Positions 13,012 to 28,010 of a stretch of 64,000 nt of DNA are shown in pieces (position 1 is the stretch's first letter; each line of letters begins with the position of its first letter). Origin of the DNA: the human T2T-CHM13v2.0 reference genome, Homo sapiens. Made by a program: the position numbers and the translations under genes. The notes below the pieces were generated by a model. It did no database searches and was not told where the DNA came from. It saw nothing but the letters and a program-made list of their open reading frames with translations. The stretch lies in NCBI RefSeq assembly GCF_009914755.1, contig NC_060932.1. One strand, 5' to 3'.

Positions 13012-14150
13012 TGTACACCCTGTGATATGATTTTTGATATCCTAGGGAGATATTGCTCCTGACATCAGAGTGGTCGTACACCATGTGATATTATTTGTAA
13101 TCACCCAGGGAAATATGATCCCTAATATTACAGTGGGTGCACACTCTGTGATGTTATTTGTAATGTCCTAGGAACATATTATTCCTAATATCAAAGTGGA
13201 CGTACACTATGTGTGTACACTCTGTGATCTAATTCGTAATATCCCAGAAAGATATTTCTCCTCATATCACAGTGAGTGTACACTCTGTGATATTATTCGT
13301 ACTATCCTAGAGAGATATTGCTCCCAGTATGACAGTGGGTGTACACCCTGTGATATGATTCATAATATCCTAGAGAGATATTACCTGTAATATCACAGTT
13401 TCTGTACACCCTGTGGTGTTATTTGTAATATCCTAGGGAGATATTATTCCGAACATCACAGTGCATGTACACCATGGGTGGACACCCTGTGATGTTATTC
13501 ATAATATCCTAGGTGGATATTACCCTTAATGTCACAGTGCGTGTACACCAGGTGTATACACACTGAGATGTTACTCGTAATATCCTAGGGAGAAATTACG
13601 CCTAATGTTACAGTGGGTGTACACCATGTGTTTCTATTCTGTGATGCTATTCATAATATCTTAGAAAGTTACTAGTCCTAGTGCCACAGTGGGTGTGTAC
13701 CATGTGTGTACACTCTGTGATGTTATTCGTATTATCCTAAGGAGATAGTTATAATATCACCGTGGGTGTCCCTCATGTCTGTACTCCCTGTGGTGTTATT
13801 GGTTACGTCCTGGGTTGATATTACTCCTAATATCACCATGGGTGCACAGCATGGGTGTACATTCTGTGATGTTATTCGTAATATCCTAGGGAGATATCAC
13901 TCCTTATGTCATAGTGGGTGTACAGCCTTGTGATATTATTGGTAGTATACTTGGGATGTATTACTCCTGTTATCACAGTGGGTGTACACCCTGTGATAGT
14001 ATTTGTAATATCCTAGGGAGATATTACTCTATACCCTGTGATATTATTTGTGACCTTTTAGGGAGCTATTTCTCCTAAAGTCAAAGTGGGTGTACACCCT
14101 GTAATATTCTTCCTAATATCACTGTGGGTGTACACCATGAGTGATATTTT
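13012..14150. repeat. SATR2-type satellite
   Basis: ~63-64-bp unit, some units with an extra CATGTGTGTACA insert. Confidence 0.8.
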
Positions 14151-16170
14151 TTCTAATATCCAGTGGGGGAGAGGATGATATTGCTTCCAATGTCACAGAA
14201 GGTGTACACCCCCCTGTGATATTGTTCCTAATATCCAGGGAAGGAGAGGATGATATTATTCCCAATATCACTGGGGGTGTACCACCTCCCGCCGGGATAT
14301 TGTTGCTAATATCCGGAGGTGGAGAGAATGATGTTACTTCCAATATCACAGGGGGTGTACACCACCCCTGTTTGTAAACACCCCCTGTGATATTGCTCCA
14401 AATGGCCTGTGAAAGAGTAAATATTACTCCCATTATCGCAGGGGGTGTTCAGCCCTGCTGATATTGTTTTCTAACATCCAGGGAAGGAGAGTATGATATT
14501 ACTCCCAATATGGCAGGGGTTGTACAACTTTTTGTGTTATTGCGCCCAATATCCAGGGAAATAGAGGATGATATTACTCCCAATATCGAAGTAATTCTAC
14601 AGCACCCCTGTGATATTCTTCCTTATATCCAGAAAGGAAAAGAATGATACTACTCCCAACAGCGTAGGAAATGTACACCTGCGCTATGATATCTTTCCCA
14701 GTATCCAGGAGGGGAGAGGATCATACTGCTTCCAATATCGCAGGGCGTGTACACCCCCTCTGTGATTTGTTGCTAACGTCCAGGTTTGGGGAGAACGACA
14801 TTACTCCCAATATCGCAGGGGGAGTACAACTCCCGTGACCTTGTTAGTCATTTCCTGGGTGGAGAGGATGATCTTACTCCCAATATCGCAGGGGGAGTAC
14901 ACACCCTTGTGAAAATCTCCCTAATATCCAGAGGGAGAGAGGATAATATTACTCCCAGTACTGCAGGGGGTTTACACAGCCCTGTGATACTCTTCCTAAT
15001 ATCCACAGGGAAAGAGGATGATATGACTTCCAATATCGAAGGGGGCTTATGCAACCCTGTGATATTGTTCCTAATATCCAGAGCGAAAGAGGATGATATG
15101 ACTCTCAATATCACAGGGGGTATACACCCCTCCTGTACTATTGTCCTGAATACCCTGGGAGGGAGAGGATAAGGTGACATTGAATATCGCAGGGAATGTA
15201 CACCCTCCTCCTCTGATACCCTTCCTAATATCCAGGGGAAGAGAGGATAATTTTAGGCCCAATATCGCAGAGGCAGTACACCCCTCCTGTGATGTTGTTC
15301 CTAATATGCAAGTGGGGACAGGATGATACTACTCCCAATATCGCAGGGCTGTTCACATCCCCAGTTTCATATTTCCTAATATGTAGGGGAGAGACAATTA
15401 TATGACAGCAAATGTCACAGAGTCTGTACATCCCTTCCTCGTATTGTTCCTAATATCCATGGGGGAAGAGGATGATATCAAATATCAAAGGGGGTGTACA
15501 CACCCCACCCCTACGATCTGCTCTCAATATTCTTGAGGGGAGACGATGATATTACTCCAAATATCGCAGGGGTTGTTCACACCCCCCTGTGATATTGTTT
15601 CTAATATCCGCGGGGGGGAGAAAATAATATTACTTCCAAGATTGCAGGTGGTGTAAACCCCACCTGAAATATCGCACCGAATATCCAAAGAGGGAGAGGA
15701 TGGTATTCATACCAACATCGAAGTGTGTGTACACGCCCCTTGTGATATGGTTTTTAATATCCAGGGGGCGGGAGGATGATATGATTCCCAACATCCCAGA
15801 GGCTGTACACTACCCCTGTGATGTTGTCCCTAACTTCCAGAAGGGAGAAATTGATATCACTCCCAATATCTCAGAAGTTGTACATCCTCCGTGATATTGT
15901 TCGTCATATCCAGGGAGGCACAGGATGACATTCCATTGAATGTCGCGACAGACGTACACGCACTGTGTGATATTGTTCCTAATATCCACGAAGGGAGAGG
16001 ATGATATTACTCCCAGTAAAGCAGTGGGTGTACATTATCCCTGTGTTATTGTCTCTAATATCCGGAGCCGGGGGAGGGGAGTAGAGGATAACATTCCCTC
16101 AAATTTAGCAGGCGGTTTGACGCCCCTTGTGGTGTTGTTTTAAATATGCAGCGGGGAAGACTTTAATACT
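14150..16170. repeat. SATR1-type satellite
   Basis: ~75-bp purine-rich unit ...ATCCAGGGGGAGAGGATGATATTACTCCCAATATCGCAGGGGGTGTACAC... Confidence 0.8.
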
Positions 16171-19100
16171 ATTTTGGATAGTCCGATTCACCTGCTCCAC
16201 CTTTCCAGAACTCTGAGGCCAGGAGGCGGCATGCAGTTTCCGTGTGATCCCCAATACCTTTGCCGTCTTCTGTACCAAGTCAGCCACAAACGCAGGCCCG
16301 TTATCTGAGCCGATCCGTAAGGGCAGTCCAAATGTAGGAATCAGATCTGGAGGAAGCACAGGGGTTACTTTATGAGCTTTCTCAGTTCGTGTTGGATAAG
16401 CCTCCACCCACCCAGAGTAGGTACACCCAAGAACTAGTAAATGCTTGTTACCTCCACACTTTGGCACCTCTGTGAAGTCTACCTGGAGATCTTCAAAGGG
16501 GGCTGCTCCATAAGCTTGTATGCCGGACGGAACAGCTGGACCTTGCCTCGCATTATGCTGTCGGCAGGTAACACACCACTGGGGCACCGTTTTGACAAGG
16601 GCTGACAAATGCGAGATGTGGAAATACCAGCCTACCAACTTTTCCAGTGACTCCTGACCTAGATGGGTGGTTTTCTGCGCAGCCAGTACAACTGCAGCTC
16701 CTAGCAGCTGTGGCACAGCTACTCTGCCATCTGGTAACTGAATCCATCCTTCCTCCATCACTTGTCCTTCCCTCTACCTGGAGAAAGTCCTTTTCTTCCT
16801 TAGAATAAGTAGGTCCAAGATCAGGTGCTTGAGGGAGCAGAGGGGCTGTGACTGATGCCCGGAAGGGGGCAGATGCTGCTTGTCGAGGCTCTGAGTCAGC
16901 ACGGGAGTTCCCCAAACCCACCAAGGTGGAAGCTCGCTGGTGTCCTCTGCAATGCACAACTGCCACCTTGTGGGGTTTCCATACTGCTTCTGATAATTGC
17001 AAGATTTCTTGTGGTTACTTTCTGTCTTTTCCCCCAGAGTTCAGCAGGCCTTTTTCTTTCTATCATGCTCCATGCACTTGAAGGGTTAAAAAGGCATACA
17101 GAGGATCAGCGTAAATGTTGACAGTCTCACCTTCACTGAGTTCTAAAGCCCAAATTAAAACAATGAGTTCAGCTTTCTGAGCTGAAGTGCCCTGGGGCAA
17201 AGATCTGGCTTTAACAACAGTGTCCAGGGTTACCACTGCATACCCTGCACCTCTCTCTCTTTGGGGGTTGAAGAAGCTGCTCCCATCCACCTATAGTTCC
17301 TGGTCTGCTGATGCCTAAGTCTGGTCCCAGAGGTCAGGTCTGCTAGAGTCAACAGAGTCCAACACTTCTATACAATCATGATCGACAGGGCTCTCTGATA
17401 CCGGGAGCAAGGTGGCAGGGTTTAGGGTGTTACAAACTTCAATGGTTATACGGAGATTTTCACGGAGCAAAGTTTGGTACTTGGTGAGTCTGGCATTCGT
17501 TACCCAATGACGTCCTTTAGTATTCATTAAAGTCACCACAACACGGGAGGCCTTTATGTTCAGGTTTTGGCCAAGAGTCAGCTTATGTGCTTCTTGTACT
17601 AGCAGGGCAGTTGCTGCCAAGGCCCTCAAACACGGGGGCCATCCTTTCTGCCAGGGCCCCACAGTTTGGGTTCAAAGTCCAGCTGCCATTTTTTCTCTCT
17701 CTGATGCATACAATGGAAAAGGCTTTGTCAGATCAGGTAGCCCCAGGGCTGGGGCTGACATAAGTTTTTTCTTTAACACATGAAAGACTTGCTGTTGTTG
17801 GGATCCCCATTCAAAAATTCCTGGTCCCCGCCCCCTTGTGACCTCATACAAAGGTTGGCTAATACTGCAAAATTTGGGATCCACAGTCTACAAAACCCCA
17901 GGGCTCCTAAGAATTCTCTCACCTGCCTTCTGCTCTTAGGCTCTGCTAGATTGCAAATGACCTGCATTCTTTCTGATCCCAGGCTGACTTCCCCCTTTCG
18001 GATAGTAAATCCCAAGTAATGTACCTGCTGTTGGCAGATCTGAGCTTTCTTCTTGGACACCTTCTACCCACAGTCCTCCAGGTGCTGGTGTAGGGCATCT
18101 GTTCCCTTGGCGCACCCGACTGCCGTGGGGTGTCCCAGCAAACGGTCATCAACCTACTGGAGAAACATGCAGCCTAGGTCTCTGCTGGGAAACTTCTGGA
18201 AGTCTCCAGCCAACACCTCCCCGAAAATGGTGGGGGAGTTCTTGAACCCTTGGGGAAGCCCAGTCCAAGTGTACTAAGTAGTGACACCTGACTCCAGATC
18301 TTCCCACTGAAAGGCAAACAGCTTCTGCCTCTCAGGGGCTAATCTGATAGGCAAGAAAGCATCTTTCAGGTCCAAGCAGGTGAACCAGCTGTCCTCAGCT
18401 GTCAGCAACCCCAACAATGTGGACGGGTTAGGTACTGTTGGATGTAAAGTCAGTGTAGCTTGATGAAGCAAGCGCAAATCCTGTACTGGCCTGTAGTTCT
18501 TGGTCCGTGGCTTGGGAACAGGCAGGAGGGGAGTGTTCCATGGAGACTGACAAGGAACTCTAATTCCAAAAGGTCTTAGGTGCTTGAGATGGACCTGGAT
18601 ACCTTGAAGGGCTTCTCTGGGGACCGGGTCCTGTTTTTACCTAACCGGCTGGGCCCCAGGCTTCACTTCTATGAGTACAGGGGCTTGGTTGACTGCCAGC
18701 CCTGGAGGGTTGTCTTCCGCCCGTACTCTTGGCCATCGCTTAGCCAGAGCTGGTCTTATCTCTTGGTCCAGCTCAGTGAAGAAAAGTCTCCATTCCTCCT
18801 CTCGGGAGACTATAAGGGTCATAACGACTCCCGTTCCAGGTAACTTTAGCAGCAAAGAGCCGTGCTCTGTCAAAGAGATAGTGGCTCTCAGCTTGCTAAG
18901 CAAGTCCCTTCCCAACAAGCGCAAGGGACAGTTAGGCGTGTACAAAAACTGCTGAATGACTTTAGGTCCTCCTACAGTACAAGTCCGAGGCAAGCAGAAA
19001 GCTTGCTTTGCTGAAACCCCCGTGGCTGCGATGATGTCAATAGTCTTTTTGGATAAGGGGGCGACCGGGGTGGTTACTAGCGAATGTTCAGCACCAGTAT

Positions 19101-19179
19101 CTACAAGAAAATCAGTGTCTCTACCCCCGACTGTCGTTCTGACCAGAGGCTCTTTGAGGACACTTGAGCCCAGTCTCCC
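16171..19179 (-). pseudogene. ERV pro-pol (protease, RT, RNase H, partial integrase), disrupted
   Basis: FLVDTGAEHS (protease, ~19080-19110); LDLKDAF and PQGFKNSPT (RT); YVDD mutated to *VDD (TAG at 18154-18156); DGSSF/SAQKAEL (RNase H); LQVDFTE, SDNGPAF, PQSSGKVE (integrase); several stops and frameshifts. Confidence 0.92.
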
Positions 19180-20697
19180 TCAGTCCAATAACCTTTCTGC
19201 CAGGTTGAGCAGGGCCCCTTCCTCCTTGTCTGGGGCCTCCTGCTCTGAGTCACCTTGTTTTCTTTTGAGCTGAGGGCATTTGTTCTTCCAACATCCTATT
19301 TCTGTACAATAAGCACACTGGTTACACTGCAAACTCTGACAGCCAAGCTGAGTTTCTTTCCCAGGGCCCCCCTTCCCTTGCCTCTCTCAGGGGGCCCCTC
19401 TGATTGCTGCAGCTAACAAACAGGTCGGTGTTTCCCCGGGCCTGACATTCATTCTCTTTGCAGTTTTCCTCACGGCTTACTGCACCCCTGTTTACAAACA
19501 CCTGGTTAGCTATTTCTAATTATTGCGATGTATTCATCCCTGCAAGCCCAGCCTGTTTCTGCAGTTTTCTTCTCATGTCTTCTGCGCTTTGACTGACTAA
19601 AGCCATGTGAATCATGCGCTGATTATCAGGGCTATCGGGATCAAAGGGAGTATACATACGATAGGCCTCCCACAGTCTCTCGTAGAATTGTGCTGGACTT
19701 TCTTCTTTTCCCTGAATGACCTCAGAGAGCTTGTTAACGTTTGTGGCCTTCTGAGCTCTCCTCTGTAATCCTTCCAAGAGAGCTTCCCTGTCTCAGTTGA
19801 GCCTTTGCATATCCCCTCTTTCATGTGGGTCCCACTGGGGGTTGGTTCCTCCTAACTGGGTCCTTAGATAGTCTCGGGGTTTTTGATAATCAGCTGGTGT
19901 ATGTTCCTCTAGCCACTTAGTTGCTGCTTGGAGCACTCTCTGCCTTTCATCTCTGTGAAAGAGGAACATGAGCAACTGGTGGCAGTCAGCCCAGGTGAGG
20001 TTGTGGGTCTGGATAACAGCTTGGAGCAAATCAATTAGGGCTTGTGGCTTTTCAGTATAGGACAGGGTATTGTTTTGCCAGTCGAGAAGGTTGGCAGAGG
20101 TGAAGGGCTGGTACACAAAAATGCGCCTCTCCACTACGTGACCATCCTCATCTATCCCAGTATACCGCTGCTCTCTCGGGGGCATTTGGATCCCCATTTG
20201 GGGTTGTAAAGGAGCTGCCAAGGGAGGGGTTTCTCCTAAGTCCTCACCTCCTCTCTTGTCTACTCTCGGTGGCCTAGGGATATGCTTGTCTTGCGGAGGT
20301 GCAAGCACTGTGGGCTCAAGAGTGGGGAGCCTCTTTCCCTGGTAAGGGGAGGGCACCACTAGGATCACTGGTGCCATCTCCTGCAATGCATCCTCTTATG
20401 CTGGGTGGAATAGAACTTCAGGAGTTGATTTCCCTGGGCGGGTGGAGCAGGATCCTTCCTTAGGTATCTGTCCCTTTGCTACTAGTACTGTTGCTGCCTG
20501 CCCTCTTAGCCACTGTGGGAGGGTCTAGCACCAGCCGTCACCAAGTGTCTATGTATACGAACTGGTCTAGGTATCGTTTACCAGTTACCTTGTGCCACAC
20601 CTTAGAAACAAGGGACCTGTCCAGGCTTCCTTCTGATGGCCGACCCACTTCTAATGGTGGGCAATCTATTTCTGACAAGGTTCTAAGTTCCCCTGGT
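19180..20697 (-). pseudogene. ERV gag (matrix 5'-deleted, capsid, nucleocapsid)
   Basis: PGELRTLSEIDCPPLEVGRPSEGSLDRSLVSKVWHKV (matrix); major-homology-region-like VIQGKEESPAQFYERL; zinc knuckle CAYCTEIGCWKNKC; TGA at 19180-19182 before pro. Confidence 0.9.
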
Positions 20698-20764
20698 GGT
20701 CTAGTGGTTGGGATTTGGCGCTCTCACTGCTGCTGCCCGCATTCGATTCCTGATCAGGGAACCA
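20690..20764 (+). tRNA. tRNA-Glu(CTC) pseudo-copy with encoded CCA, embedded at the ERV primer-binding site
   Basis: CCCCTGGTGGTCTAGTGGTTGGGATTTGGCGCTCTCACTGCTGCTGCCCGCATTCGATTCCTGATCAGGGAA+CCA; about 62/72 identical to recalled human tRNA-Glu-CTC; anticodon CTC at 20723-20725; several mismatches are CpG-type decay. Probably non-functional. Confidence 0.9.
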
Positions 20765-20769
20765 AGAAA

Positions 20770-21126
20770 TCAAATAGGAGAAGCAGGGGACCAAGTCCCT
20801 CAGACAGCGGATTCGAGAAGAAAGAGGTTTTTTGTTCAGCCGGGAACGTCGGCAGACTCGCATCTTAAGAGCCCAGCTCCCTGAAGGAAGACAGAGTTCC
20901 TGGCCCGTTTAAGGGCTTACAACTCTAAGGGGTTCCACGTGAAAGGGTCGTGATGGATTGAGAGCACATGTGCTTAGAGTGGGGGTGGTTAATCTTTTCA
21001 TCTCAGGCCGGCTCATCATTGCCACCAGCTGGTCTTGCCACCGACTTCATTCCTGTTGTTTTTCCAGTTTTACTTCCCCCTCCTCTTCAGAGACAAGAGA
21101 CAGTAGAGAAATGGCTTCTCTCCTCA
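20770..21126 (-). mobile_element. LTR2-family LTR (5' LTR of the provirus)
   Basis: Starts TG at 21126; contains GCTCTCAATCCATCACGACCC..CCCCTTAGAGTTGTAAGCCCTTAAA typical of LTR2; polyA signal appears mutated (AACAAA); followed by TTTCT-PBS. Confidence 0.75.
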
Positions 21127-22570
21127 GGGCGACAGGATGATATTACTCCCAATATCGCAGGGGGCGTACACAGCCCTGTGATATTGTTCCTAATATCCAG
21201 AGCGAAAGAGGATGATATGACTCTCAATATCGCAGGGGGTGTACACCCCTCCTGTAATATTGTTCTTCATACCCTGGGAGGGAGAGCATAAGATGACATT
21301 GAATATCGCAGGGAATGTGCACCCTCCGCCTCTGATACACTTCCTAATATCCAGGGGAAGAGAGGATAGTTTTACTCCCAATATCGCAGAGGCAGTACAC
21401 CACCCCCCGCCCCGTGATATTGTTCCTAATATCCAAGAAGGGAGAGGATGATACTTCTCCCAGTCAAGCAGTGGGTGCACATTACCCCTGTGTTATTGTC
21501 TCTAGTTTCCGGGGGCGGAGAGGATAACATTCCCTCAAATTTGGCAGGTGGTTTCACGCCCCTTGTGGTATTGTTTTTCATATCCAGCGGGGGAGACAAC
21601 AATACTACTCTCAATATCACAAGAAATGTGCATCCCCCTATGATATTGCTACTAATATCCAGGGGTAGAGAGAATGATGTTACTCCTAATATAGTCAAAG
21701 TGTCCACCCCCTTCTTTGCTATTGTTCTTCATATATGGAAGGCAAGTATGATATGACTCTCAATATGAAAGGAGGAATACACGCCCCTGTGATATTGTTG
21801 TCAGTAGGCAGTGGAGGAGAGAACGATATTACCCCCAATATCGCAGGAAGTGTACACCCCTCTGTGATCTTGTTCATAAGGTTCAATGGAAAAGATGATC
21901 TTGCTGGAAATATGGTAAATACGCTGTGTGTCCACAGTGGCTGCTAACATGCAGGGAGGGAAGGGGGTTGATATTACTCTGCGCATCAGCGGAGGGTGTC
22001 CACGCCCCTGAGATGTGGCTCCTAATATCCATGGGGAAGGGGGATATATATTACTCCCCACATCACTGGGGGTGTCTACCCCCCCGCGATGTGGCTCGTA
22101 ATATCGGGGGTGGGGGGGGGTGATATTTCTCCCCGCATCGCGGGGGTCGCCCGCCCCCGTGCGATGTGTATCGTAATAGCAAGGGAAGGAGAGGGGGATG
22201 ATATTACTCCCCGCATCGTGGCAGAGTCTATCACAGATCAGGATACTATCCACCCCCTGGGATATGGGGAGTACACCCGCTGTCATATTGGGAAAAATAT
22301 CATACTCTTCCCCCCTGAATATTAGGAACAATATCATGGAGGGGGTGTTCATCCCCTGCCATATTGTGAGTCACGTCATTTTCTCTACCCCTGGACATCA
22401 AGAACAATGTCACAGGGGTGGTGTACAACCCCTGCGAAACTGGGAGATATATCTTCCTCTCCACCTTTGGATGTGAGGGACAATATCACAGGGGAGGTCT
22501 ACACCTTCTGGATTATTGGGATTAATACCGTGCTGTCCCCGCCCGGATATTAGCAACAAGATCACAGATA
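21127..22570. repeat. SATR1-type satellite
   Basis: Same ~75-bp unit, with a CpG-rich variant stretch at ~21950-22220. Confidence 0.8.
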
Positions 22571-22579
22571 TTAAGTGGA

Positions 22580-23080
22580 ATGGCACGATATTACTTATCA
22601 CAATTAATAATATCACTTTTAATATCAATATTACTTATCGCAATTAATATCAATTTCAATATCAATATTACTTATCGCAATTAATAATAATAATAGTAAT
22701 GCAATTAATAATTAATAATCTATAATATCCATTTTAATATCAATATTACTTATCGCTATTAATAATATCAATTATTAATTGATACTAATAATTATCAATA
22801 TTAATAACTGATAATATAATTTTAAAAATCATACCAATAATAATGATAATTAATATTAAATAGTTATACAAATGATAATAAATGATTCATATTAATGATT
22901 AATAACGCCTGATATTAATAACTGATATTGATCTTATTCATTAGAAAACAGTAATATTAGCTCCTAATAATTAATATTAATATTAATAACCTGAACACTT
23001 TATTAGCAATTATTTATTAATATTAATATTGGTAATTCATATTCATGTGAATAATAAATGAGGAAAGATGAATACGAATC
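22580..23080. repeat. Very AT-rich low-complexity block, copy 2
   Basis: Internal repeats of AATATCAATATTACTTATCGC; homologous to 590-930. Confidence 0.85.
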
Positions 23081-24230
23081 TTACACCTAATATCTCAGTG
23101 GGTGTACACCCACCTGTGATATTGTTCCTAATGTCCAGGGAGGGAGAGAGCATGATATTCCGTTCAATATCGCACTAGGTGTACACCCACCCGGTGATAT
23201 TGATCCGAATATAATCTCCAGGGGGTGGAGTATGACGTTACTTCCAATATAGCACTGGGTGTGCATCCACCCGGTGATTTTGCTCCTAATATTCACGGAA
23301 GAAGAGAATGCTATTACTCCCAGTATGGCAGGAAGTGTACACCCCTTCTGTGACATTGTTCCTAATATCCGGAGGGGGAGAGGGTGATATTACTCGCAAT
23401 ATCGCAGGCTGTGTACACCCACCCTCTAATGTTGTTCCTAGTAGCCCGGAAGCGAGAGGACGATATGACTCCCCACACAGCAGGAGGTGTACACCCATCC
23501 GGGGATATTATTCCTAATATCCATGGAGAGGAGAGGCTGATATTACTCCCAATATCGCAGGGGGTGTACATCCAGTCTTGATACTGTTCTTAATATTCAA
23601 AGGCGGAGAAGTTGATATTACTCCCAATATCACAGAAAGTGTACAAACCCGTGTGATATTGTTTCTACTATCCAGAAGAAGAGAAGATGATATCACCCCC
23701 CCCCCCCCCCCATCACAGGAGGTGTACACCCACTCTGTGATATTTTTTCCAATGTGCAGGGCAGGGGAGGATAATATTCTTCTTAATAGCACTGGGTGTG
23801 TACAGCCCCACTGTGATATGGTCCTTAATATTCCAAGGCGGAGAGGATGATCTTACTCCCAATACTGCAGAAAGTGTACACCACCCCAGTGATATGGTTC
23901 CCATGATCCAGGAGAGAAGAGGATGATATTACTTTCAATATCGCACGGGGTGGACACACCCCCAGTGATATTGTTCCTAATTTCATCGTGGGAGAGGATG
24001 ATACTACACGGAATGCCCCTAGGGGTAAAAACACTCCTGTGATATTGTTCTTAATATCAAGGGGAAAGAGAATGCTATTACTCCAAAGAGTGCAGAGGAT
24101 GTGCACCCGTCGGTGACATCGTTGGTAATTTCCAGAGGCGGAGAAGATATTACTGACAATAACGTGAACACGCTGTGTGACCACCGAGGATCCTCATATT
24201 CACGGGGGGAGAGGGGGTTGATAGGACTCC
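23080..24230. repeat. SATR1-type satellite
   Basis: Same unit; its start is homologous to 930-1460. Confidence 0.78.
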
Positions 24231-27200: not shown

Positions 27201-28010
27201 AGATATTACAGAGTTATAACTCTCTCTGTTATATTAGAGAGTTATATCTCTCTAAGACAGTACAAATAATACCACAGTGGGTGTACCTCATGTGTGTACA
27301 CCCTGTGATATTATTTGTAATATCCATGGTAAACATGACATCTAATAGCACAGAGTGTGTACTCCCTTTGGTATTTCTCATACTTTCATAGGGAGATATT
27401 GCTTCTAATATCACAGTAGGTGTACACCATGCACGTACATTCTGTGATATGATACCTTCTATCCTAGGGAGATATCTCTCCGAATATCACAGTGTGTGTA
27501 CACCTTGTGATATTATCCATAATGTCCTAGAAGGATGTCACTCCTAATATGACAGAGGGCGTACACCCAGTGGTATTCTTCGTAATATCCTAGGGAGATG
27601 TTACTCCTAATGTCACACGGGGTGTACACCCATGATATTCTTCGTAATATTCTAGGGGGATGTTACTTAAAAAGTCACAGGGGGTATACACCCTGTGATG
27701 TTGTTTGTAACATCCTAAGATGTTACCCTTAATGTCACATGGGGTGTACACCCTGTGATATTACTCGGAATATCTTATGGGGATGCTACTCCTAATGTCA
27801 CAGGCTGTGTACACCCTGTGATATTATTCGGAATATCCACAGAGACGTTACTTTTGATGCCACGACTGGGTCCACGCTTTGATATTTTTTGTCATATCTT
27901 AGGGAGGTATTACTTCGAATATCAGAGTGGTTGTACACCCACTGTGATGTTATTCGCAATACCCTAGGGAGATATAACTTTTAATATCACCGTAGGTTTA
28001 CACACTACTA
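24290..28010. repeat. SATR2-type satellite
   Basis: ~63-64-bp unit; 24290-25420 is paralogous to 1860-2960. Confidence 0.8.
27261..27319 (+). ncRNA. MIR5692A2: Satellite-derived hairpin matching annotated miR-5692a precursor
   Basis: TACAAATAATACCACAGTGGGTGTAC...GTACACCCTGTGATATTATTTGTA folds back on itself; contains the recalled mature sequence CAAATAATACCACAGTGGGTGT (27263-27284). Confidence 0.7.

What the first reader, a model, noticed from the sequence alone, without database searches (positions are those of the whole stretch)
20670..20775. Entire mature tRNA-Glu primer captured inside a HERV-E provirus and fused to gag by microhomology
Seen: directly inside the LTR (TTTCT-TGG...), the 18-nt PBS (20747-20764) is not followed by a viral leader. 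It continues through the complement of the whole 72-nt tRNA-Glu(CTC). On the provirus strand the complement of the tRNA 5' end (CCACCAGGG) then runs straight into matrix codons PG-ELRTL. The leader, splice donor, packaging region and gag ATG are missing. Knowledge: plus-strand strong-stop synthesis normally copies 18 nt of the primer (including CCA) and halts at m1A58, here position 20746, which remains A; HERV-E matrix reads TPGKLRTL (ACACCAGGGA, from recall). Inference: RT read through A58, copied the primer to its 5' end, and then made the second strand transfer at an ~8-10-nt microhomology in gag. That would make this a germline fossil of failed strong-stop and a retrovirus-dependent, L1-independent route to tRNA pseudogenes.
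Basis: partly seen in the sequence, partly recalled or inferred. Interest (0 to 1): 0.85.

Follow-up and report, generated by a model that had tools for sequence, protein, structure and literature searches.

The report
Whole primer tRNA inside HERV-E fragment
An ancient retrovirus remnant on human chromosome 8 carries a DNA copy of the entire tRNA that primed its replication, a copying accident already known from HIV, and the piece was later multiplied as part of a known duplicated block.

Summary
On the minus strand a complete LTR (21126-20765) is followed by the 18-nt tRNA-Glu primer binding site. It then runs without a break through the complement of the rest of tRNA-Glu(CTC), and joins HERV-E gag 30 codons after its start, inside an 8-9-nt identity. 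About 610 nt (leader and gag start) are missing. Read-through of the primer during plus-strand strong-stop synthesis, followed by a misplaced second strand transfer, fits every feature. Three corrections apply. First, this is not a private fossil of this locus. Eight other places in the same genome carry the identical junction and also share the flanking satellite array. So it was one old event, later copied as a block: the published SATR-HERVE-SATR flank of the OR7E 'Xiao/DA' core duplicon. Second, the mechanism is in print for HIV-1, with 44 proviruses carrying tRNA(Lys3) inserts at the deletion junction. This is therefore a germline, whole-tRNA member of a known kind. Third, spread beyond the block did use L1. 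Three dispersed partial copies carry L1-type target duplications. One has the ends expected of a Pol III transcript of the tRNA-plus-U5 unit. Neither tRNA-finding program recognises the copies as tRNA today.

The parts
21127..24100 (.). Tandem array with a 75-76-nt period (SATR-type) abutting the 5' end of the LTR. This same flank is shared by all eight paralogues.
   Evidence: Repeat families D6, D8, D9, D13, D14. Flank shared contiguously with L002-L009. Named SATR1/SATR2 only from the literature, not tested here.
20765..21126 (-). 5' LTR of LTR2 type, complete at its 5' end. It starts TGAGGAGAG and ends ...GATTTCT.
   Evidence: Aligns along its whole length to the ~365-nt LTRs of L010, L011 and L012 at 82-85%. 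The name LTR2C comes from the RepeatMasker label of the related locus L063 in Table S3 of PMC13174262.
20747..20764 (-). 18-nt primer binding site, complementary to tRNA-Glu nucleotides 59-76 including CCA.
20690..20746 (-). Complement of tRNA-Glu(CTC) nucleotides 58 down to 1, contiguous with the PBS. 20746 is the A58 place. 20690 is the odd base (C on +, where T is expected).
   Evidence: Not called as a tRNA by ARAGORN or Rfam.
20691..20698 (-). Join: CACCAGGG is common to the end of the tRNA complement and to gag codons T-P-G. It is 9 nt if the next A is counted; 13 of 16 positions agree further back.
   Evidence: Alignment of the window, the tRNA complement and 19 normal copies. 12 of the 16 copies that keep the site read CACCAGGGA exactly. 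About 0.03 such 9-mers are expected by chance in 8 kb.
16172..20689 (-). HERV-E internal part: gag lacking its first 30 codons, then pro and pol up to the integrase core. Many stops and frameshifts. No integrase C-terminus, env or 3' LTR.
   Evidence: ORF pieces. Pfam Gag_p30, RVP, RVT_1, RNase_H, zf-H2C2 and rve. The array resumes at about 16171.
14100..16171 (.). The same 75-76-nt array on the other side of the fragment. 15002-15337 and 15967-16171 are paralogous to 21121-21462 and 21414-21607.
   Evidence: 88.6% over 342 nt; 84.9% over 205 nt.
20685..20833 (+). Inferred transcription unit read on the plus strand: 5-nt leader, tRNA-like part, CCA and antisense U5 up to the first T-run (20828-20833). 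These are exactly the limits of the retrocopy L063.
   Evidence: L063 matches only window 20685-20834. T-run located. Pol III transcription itself is inference.

Best explanation
A HERV-E virus primed by tRNA-Glu(CTC) made one faulty DNA copy.

During plus-strand strong-stop synthesis the reverse transcriptase did not halt at nucleotide 58 of the primer still attached to the minus strand. It copied the tRNA to its 5' end. The 3' end of that over-long strong-stop DNA could no longer pair at the PBS. It paired instead with the minus strand where gag happens to read the same 8-9 bases (13 of 16), 30 codons into gag, and synthesis went on from there.

The product had a normal LTR and PBS, then the complement of the whole tRNA, then gag. 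It lacked about 610 nt of leader and gag start. It entered the germ line inside a satellite array. It later lost its 3' part, and was then copied at least eight times as part of the SATR-HERVE-SATR flank of the OR7E 'Xiao/DA' duplicon. The window holds one of these copies.

Shown by the calls: the anatomy, the shared junction, the shared flanks and the missing segment. Inferred: the order of the enzymatic steps, integration by integrase, and the cause of the read-through.
For: 1. The PBS runs on into the cognate tRNA with no break, in antisense, including the A58 place.
2. None of 21 normal copies continues beyond 22 nt. At position 19, 18 have G, 2 have A and 1 has T.
3. The join lies in an 8-9-nt identity between the 3' end of the tRNA complement and gag. 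About 0.03 such matches are expected by chance per 8 kb.
4. 607-615 nt, including the gag ATG, are missing relative to 4 of 4 normal copies.
5. No direct repeat of 5 nt or more and no A-run flank the tRNA.
6. The LTR reaches the same 5' end as in 3 of 3 closest normal copies.
7. Nine of nine junction-bearing loci have the same join, and 8 of 8 paralogues share the upstream array contiguously. The same nine loci, and no others, came back with three different queries.
8. The block matches the published SES element with OR7E (passages). OR7E paralogues lie within 17 kb of 8 of the 9 loci.
9. The same kind of product is documented in HIV-1: tRNA(Lys3) inserts of 7-54 nt that define the deletion junction in 44 proviruses.
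Against: - One base does not fit a clean transfer. All nine copies and L063 have G where both parents have A. That needs a misincorporation at the transfer, or a mutation before the first duplication.
- The 3' LTR is gone, so no 4-bp target duplication can show integrase-mediated entry.
- How the minus strand was completed across the join is not addressed by any data.
- No misincorporation signature of tRNA modifications is visible.
- Only one event is seen, so nothing can be said about its frequency.
- Repbase or Dfam consensus sequences could not be consulted.
- Ji and Zhao 2008, which first described the 'modified HERV-E', was not held.
Confidence: 0.85

Rival explanations
1. The tRNA-bearing genome was a replicating, trans-complemented HERV-E variant. 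The nine copies would then be separate integrations.
For: Nine copies with an identical junction, 8-15% apart. Li et al. 2009 speculate that Xiao/DA moved with HERV-E machinery.
Against: 8 of 8 paralogues share the upstream array and the LTR boundary contiguously with the window. c2 and c13 share it with each other at 91.7%. No copy with other flanks was found in three searches. The leader region between PBS and gag is absent; from general knowledge this holds the gammaretroviral packaging signal.
Confidence: 0.04
2. An ordinary L1-mediated tRNA retropseudogene landed next to the PBS, and a separate deletion removed the leader.
For: tRNA retrocopies are common. L1 did move related pieces (L063, L064, L065).
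Against: The tRNA would have to land in antisense exactly in register with the 18-nt PBS so that CCA and nucleotides 59-76 coincide. No target duplication and no A-run are present. The other end sits in an identity with gag.
Confidence: 0.02
3. Genomic rearrangement or gene conversion with a tRNA-Glu gene occurred after integration.
For: The region is a hotspot of duplication and conversion (literature passages).
Against: tRNA-Glu genes are not followed by CCA (one search shows GCC, GTC and TGA after the gene). The copy carries no gene flank on either side. The orientation and register are those of a primer annealed to the PBS.
Confidence: 0.02
4. The read-through and misplaced transfer happened one or more replication cycles before the integration seen here. 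The provirus would then have inherited the structure rather than created it.
For: Once formed, the structure would be copied faithfully, since the extra tRNA complement lies downstream of a normal PBS. The odd G could be a later replication error.
Against: No second integration of the variant is seen. The variant lacks the gag start and the leader, so each further cycle would need help and packaging without the usual signal.
Confidence: 0.07

Closest known systems
Defective HIV-1 proviruses made by deferred (aberrant) second-strand transfer with tRNA(Lys3) inserts (Hardy et al. 2025, PMC12657518; passages read)
   Same: Intact U5 and PBS, followed by further complement of the primer tRNA. The tRNA insert marks the deletion junction, and synthesis resumes downstream on the viral genome. 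Read-through of position 58 is invoked.
   Different: Those are somatic proviruses of a lentivirus in patients, with inserts of 7-54 nt. Here the virus is an endogenous gammaretrovirus-like element fixed in the germ line tens of millions of years ago. All 57 nt beyond the PBS were copied, and the element was later multiplied by duplication. The passages I read do not discuss homology at the join (0 occurrences of 'microhomology').
m1A58 / position-54 stop model of plus-strand strong-stop (Fukuda et al. 2021, PMC8599865; passages read)
   Same: It explains why 18 nt are normally copied and what happens when the stop fails.
   Different: That paper states that cDNA continued beyond position 54 cannot be integrated. 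The copy here, like the HIV cases, shows that it sometimes ends up in a chromosome.
SES (SATR-HERVE-SATR) flank of the Xiao/DA composite elements, the OR7E core duplicon of 8p23.1 (Li et al. 2009 PMC2700803; Mohajeri et al. 2016 PMC5088589; passages read)
   Same: A HERV-E piece between satellite arrays next to OR7E pseudogenes, with many interchromosomal copies, and an 8p23.1 location.
   Different: The text of Li et al. has 0 occurrences of tRNA, PBS or 'primer binding' and calls the element only a 'modified', inactive HERV-E. The original description (Ji and Zhao 2008) was not held, so it may say more.
Small-RNA/L1 chimeric insertions, including 21 tRNA/L1 chimeras (PMC13174262; passages and supplement file 2 part 2 read)
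   Same: L063 is listed there as tRNA-Glu-GAG:1-75 plus LTR2C:439-501 (antisense) plus L1PA5. It is in sense orientation and was inserted as one unit.
   Different: It is the only 1 of the 21 rows with a 'tRNA,LTR' partner. The table gives no interpretation. Most of the others are half tRNAs in antisense.
Strong-stop-DNA hypothesis for the origin of tRNA-derived SINEs (Ohshima et al. 1993; only the title was seen in a reference list; content recalled; paper not held)
   Same: A tRNA joined to retroviral U5/R sequence as the seed of a Pol III retroposon.
   Different: That proposal concerns minus-strand strong-stop DNA with its primer. Here the tRNA-U5 unit exists because the plus strand copied the primer and the product was integrated as part of a provirus. 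Only two tRNA-sense retrocopies are seen, so this is not a SINE family.
Helenus/TRIMp3 LTR retrotransposons with tRNA-like sequence (Kojima 2024, PMC10886601; passages read)
   Same: A tRNA-like sequence inside an LTR element.
   Different: In Helenus the tRNA-like part lies in the LTR, serves as a promoter and is not complementary to the PBS. Here it is the primer itself, downstream of the LTR and continuous with the PBS.

Membership tests
Provirus formed by primer-tRNA read-through and misplaced second strand transfer | A normal U5 end and full 18-nt PBS, followed without a break by more complement of the cognate primer tRNA | tested here: met
   All 57 further nucleotides are present. 0 of 21 normal copies show this.
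Provirus formed by primer-tRNA read-through and misplaced second strand transfer | The tRNA insert marks a deletion that starts right after the PBS and resumes downstream in the viral genome | tested here: met
   607-615 nt are missing relative to 4 of 4 normal copies; it resumes 91 nt into gag.
Provirus formed by primer-tRNA read-through and misplaced second strand transfer | Integrated like a provirus: two LTRs and a short target duplication | tested here: inconclusive
   The 5' LTR is complete at its outer end. The 3' part is absent, because the array resumes within pol, so no target duplication can be read.
HERV-E (ERV1 with tRNA-Glu PBS, LTR2-type LTR) | PBS complementary to the tRNA-Glu 3' end | tested here: met
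HERV-E (ERV1 with tRNA-Glu PBS, LTR2-type LTR) | Gammaretrovirus-type gag-pro-pol related to the multi-copy family | tested here: met
   Pfam domains. The gag piece is 86-94% identical to more than 30 other loci. The family name itself comes from the literature and from a RepeatMasker label of a related locus, not from a library search here.
SES flank of the Xiao/DA OR7E core duplicon | A HERV-E piece bracketed by satellite arrays, next to an OR7E pseudogene, in several interchromosomal copies | tested here: met
   Arrays on both sides. OR7E10P and OR7E15P are in the window (hub annotation). OR7E lies within 17 kb of 8 of the 9 loci. There are nine copies on chromosomes 2, 3, 8 and 13.
L1-mediated tRNA retropseudogene (for the window copy) | Target-site duplication and an A-rich 3' end around the tRNA | tested here: not met
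   There is no direct repeat of 5 nt or more within 60 nt on either side, and no A-run.
Functional tRNA gene | Cloverleaf recognised by tRNA finders | tested here: not met
   ARAGORN found 0 genes in 19000-23000. Rfam gave no match at the gathering score or at E up to 1. None was found in 11 related loci at E up to 0.01.
tRNA-derived SINE | A Pol III unit with a tRNA head that has made many retrocopies | tested here: not met
   Only two tRNA-sense retrocopies were found (L063, L065). A third (L064) is viral-sense. Pol III transcription was not tested. It resembles how a SINE works but is not a family.

The most novel reading that the evidence does not exclude
The retroviral accident created a new Pol III gene: a faithful DNA copy of a mature tRNA (internal promoter included) followed by antisense U5 and a T-run.

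This ~150-nt unit was transcribed from block copies and retroposed by L1. That would make it a natural, datable example of a tRNA-derived retroposon being seeded by retroviral reverse transcription, as long proposed for SINE origins.

The basis is L063. It starts 5 nt before the tRNA part, ends in the T-run and is fused to an L1PA5 3' end with a 12-nt target duplication. It also carries lineage marks of the block: the AAGTT leader, the odd C, and a G-to-T change in the variable loop. L065 is a second tRNA-sense retrocopy with an 11-13-nt target duplication.
Probability: 0.35. Interest if true: 0.75.

Novelty: new member of a known kind. Interest (0 to 1): 0.55.

Why it matters
It shows that failure of the plus-strand strong-stop, followed by a homology-guided rescue, is not only a source of dead HIV proviruses in patients. 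It also happened in an ancient gammaretrovirus-like virus and reached the germ line, with the whole primer preserved.

It gives a precise anatomy for the 'modified HERV-E' at the edge of the Xiao/DA core duplicon, a driver of 8p23.1 instability. That HERV-E has one LTR, no leader and no gag start. This bears on the published speculation that these duplicons moved as composite retrotransposons.

It also offers a concrete case for testing whether retroviral replication errors can seed Pol III retroposons.

Tried and rejected
- ARAGORN and Rfam gave nothing for the tRNA-like stretch. I therefore relied on similarity to real tRNA-Glu genes.
- I first took the LTR to be truncated and of another subfamily, because plain blastn gave only 76-81% over its 3' part. 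A more permissive alignment showed it is full length against L010-L012.
- I considered that the nine copies might be a replicating subfamily. The shared flanks rejected this.
- I considered Harlequin as the family. The passages in PMC4724089 describe a different mosaic, and I could not test it further.
- I looked for more dispersed copies with three further queries and a pattern search. Nothing turned up beyond L063, L064 and L065.
- I first read L064 as a tRNA-sense retrocopy. Its 12-nt target duplication and A-tail show it is a viral-sense retrocopy joined to other sequence, so it does not support the Pol III reading.
Only two paralogues were extended, so the 3' boundary of the fragment is known for the window and c2 only.
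- A search for Olsen and Swanstrom 1985 found 0 papers. I recall that paper as describing the same pathway in avian sarcoma virus DNA, but I did not see it.
- No structure or complex prediction was relevant.

Full report
**What is there**

Read on the minus strand, window 21126-20765 is an LTR. It aligns along its whole length, at 82-85%, with the ~365-nt LTRs of the three closest ordinary copies (L010-L012). It begins at the same point as they do.

[quoted passage not shown] Without a break, the complement of the remaining 57 nucleotides of the tRNA then runs down to 20690.

A search of the window's own genome with 20690-20764 returned real tRNA-Glu genes at 85-89% identity over 71 nt. ARAGORN called 8 of 10 of those loci Glu-CTC and 2 of 10 Glu-TTC. 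The window keeps the CTC anticodon and the CTC-type D arm. Most differences from the gene are at CpG sites.

The stretch is a decayed copy. ARAGORN and the Rfam tRNA model do not call it, neither in the window nor in 11 related loci.

**The join with gag**

Downstream of the tRNA complement the frame reads ..PPGELRTLSEIDCPPLEVGRPSEG... Ordinary copies read MGQTQSKPTPLGT.LKN...GDYGVTMTPGKLRTLCEIDWP.

The 3' end of the tRNA complement and gag share CACCAGGGA, and 13 of 16 positions agree further back. Of the 19 ordinary copies aligned, 16 keep the site and 12 of those read it exactly. The other 3 have an 18-nt gap there.

A 9-nt match is expected about 0.03 times by chance in an 8-kb genome.

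In 4 of 4 ordinary copies examined, 607-615 nt lie between the PBS and this site. In the 2 of 4 that keep a start codon, the gag ATG lies 91 nt before it. The leader and the first 30 codons are therefore absent from the window copy.

None of 21 ordinary copies continues into the tRNA beyond 22 nt. At the A58 place 18 have G, 2 have A and 1 has T. The window has the complement of A.

No direct repeat of 5 nt or more and no A-run flank the tRNA.

One base is unexplained. Where both the tRNA complement and gag have A, all copies have G.

**The rest of the element**

Pfam finds Gag_p30, RVP, RVT_1, RNase_H, zf-H2C2 and rve on the minus strand between 20395 and 16105. The frames are broken many times.

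At about 16171 the 75-76-nt tandem array resumes. The integrase C-terminus, env and the 3' LTR are therefore missing.

The array piece left of the fragment (15002-15337 and 15967-16171) is paralogous to the piece right of it (21121-21462 and 21414-21607). This is the pattern expected if a provirus-bearing array recombined, within pol, with an empty array copy. That last point is inference.

**One event, many copies**

The 341-nt junction query found eight other places that span the junction, at 81-88% identity, on chromosomes 2, 3, 8 and 13. The other 31 scored matches stop at the tRNA 5' end; 40 of 436 candidates were scored.

All nine loci have the same join, including the odd G.

All eight paralogues share the upstream array and the LTR boundary contiguously with the window. 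For example, L003 matches at 91.6% over 3364 nt.

Queries taken from two other copies gave back the same nine loci and no others.

The nine differ by 7.9-15.0% over about 880 nt (mean 11.2%), or 5.8-13.6% by K2P outside CpG context. That means tens of millions of years; the exact figure depends on the rate assumed.

OR7E paralogues lie within 17 kb of 8 of the 9 loci.

This is the published block. Mohajeri et al. 2016 describe an ~18-kb core duplicon with OR7E flanked by SATR2, SATR1 and ERV1 (passages). Li et al. 2009 call its conserved flank SES, SATR-HERVE-SATR, a 'modified', inactive HERV-E, and date Xiao to 25-18 Myr (passages). Their text has no occurrence of tRNA, PBS or 'primer binding'.

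The founding paper, Ji and Zhao 2008, and Newman and Trask 2003 were not held.

**Mechanism**

The anatomy is what plus-strand strong-stop synthesis gives if it does not stop at position 58 of the attached primer. U3-R-U5-PBS is extended by the complement of the tRNA, and its 3' end can then only prime where the minus strand offers a match.

The same product class is in print for HIV-1. Hardy et al. 2025 report one sequenced provirus and 43 GenBank sequences in which tRNA(Lys3) inserts of 7-54 nt define the deletion junction. They call it deferred second-strand transfer (passages).

Fukuda et al. 2021 show that m1A58 is needed for the stop in vitro. They state that cDNA continued beyond position 54 cannot be integrated (passages). 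The present copy and the HIV cases show exceptions.

From recall only, Olsen and Swanstrom 1985 described such molecules for avian sarcoma virus. A search found no held copy.

I found no paper describing a whole primer tRNA in an endogenous retrovirus. This rests on the searches and on the passages of Vargiu et al. 2016, who scored only 18-nt PBS motifs.

Public RepeatMasker tracks probably already label the tRNA. They do so for L063.

**Beyond the block**

Three further partial copies exist.

L063 (chromosome 2) matches only window 20685-20834:
- It has five bases of the gag-side flank, the full tRNA part, CCA and about 70 nt of antisense U5 ending in a T-run.
- It is fused to a high-copy repeat with an A-rich tail. 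That repeat gave 839 candidates, and 40 of 40 scored matches were 95-97% identical.
- The insert lies between the two halves of an Alu, with a 12-nt direct repeat.
- It is row 4 of the tRNA sheet in Table S3 of PMC13174262: tRNA-Glu-GAG:1-75, LTR2C:439-501 antisense, L1PA5. It is the only 1 of 21 rows with an LTR partner.
- It carries marks of the block lineage.
- Its ends are those expected of a Pol III transcript of the tRNA-plus-U5 unit. That is inference.

L065 is tRNA-sense. It starts at tRNA nucleotide 7, ends at an internal A-run of U5 and has an 11-13-nt target duplication.

L064 is viral-sense. It is joined to other sequence, with an A-tail and a 12-nt target duplication, and shares marks with the L007/L008 branch.

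A pattern search with up to 3 mismatches found 4 sites, all already known, and 0 for the reversed control.

**Verdict**

However, the window holds one of nine duplicates of a single old event inside a known duplicon, and the mechanism itself is known from HIV-1.

What appears new is the germline, whole-tRNA example, its place in the Xiao/DA flank, and the hint that the resulting tRNA-U5 unit behaved as a small retroposon source.

Noticed in passing
L063:1521-1784 (own genome, chromosome 2, 205836420-205836683): Chimeric retrocopy: 5-nt leader, tRNA-Glu-like part, CCA and ~70 nt of antisense U5 ending in a T-run, fused to an L1PA5 3' end with an A-tail. It lies inside an Alu with a 12-nt direct repeat. 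It is listed without comment in Table S3 of PMC13174262.
   Followed up: yes
L065:463-562 (chromosome 2, 11584662-11584761): Tailless tRNA-sense retrocopy: tRNA-Glu from nucleotide 7, CCA and 31 nt of antisense U5 ending in an A-run, flanked by an 11-nt exact direct repeat (13 nt with one mismatch). Whether it comes from a block copy or from another LTR2C-type source is open.
   Followed up: partly
L064:424-627 (chromosome 3, about 106879123-106879326): Viral-sense retrocopy: part of U5, the PBS and the tRNA complement down to about nucleotide 14, joined to ~80 nt of unrelated sequence and an A-tail, with a 12-nt target duplication. It shares marks with the L007/L008 branch. The nature of the join is unexplained.
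   Followed up: partly
window 15002-16171 and 21121-21607: The array stretch just left of the ERV fragment is a paralogue of the stretch just right of it (88.6% and 84.9%). This suggests that the provirus lost its 3' part by exchange with an empty array copy.
   Followed up: partly
L019, L027, L028 (chromosome 11 copies), at the gag site that aligns with window 20690-20707: Three ordinary HERV-E-like copies lack exactly 18 nt covering the same short motif at which the tRNA join occurred. Two more loci show the same shortened match.
   Followed up: no
L010-L030, 4 nt after the PBS: In 18 of 21 ordinary copies the PBS is followed by G and then CGA. That is a mismatch at the A58 place followed by three more bases complementary to tRNA positions 55-57. 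Compare the second-stop idea of Fukuda et al. 2021.
   Followed up: no
window 27261-27319: The annotated MIR5692A2 lies inside the 63-nt-period tandem array (repeat families D1-D3 have members at 27285-27646).
   Followed up: no
L019-L022, L024, L027-L030, upstream of the PBS: These HERV-E-like copies have a different sequence in place of the LTR2-type U5 directly before the PBS. They may be the HERV-H/HERV-E hybrid elements described for type II DA.
   Followed up: no
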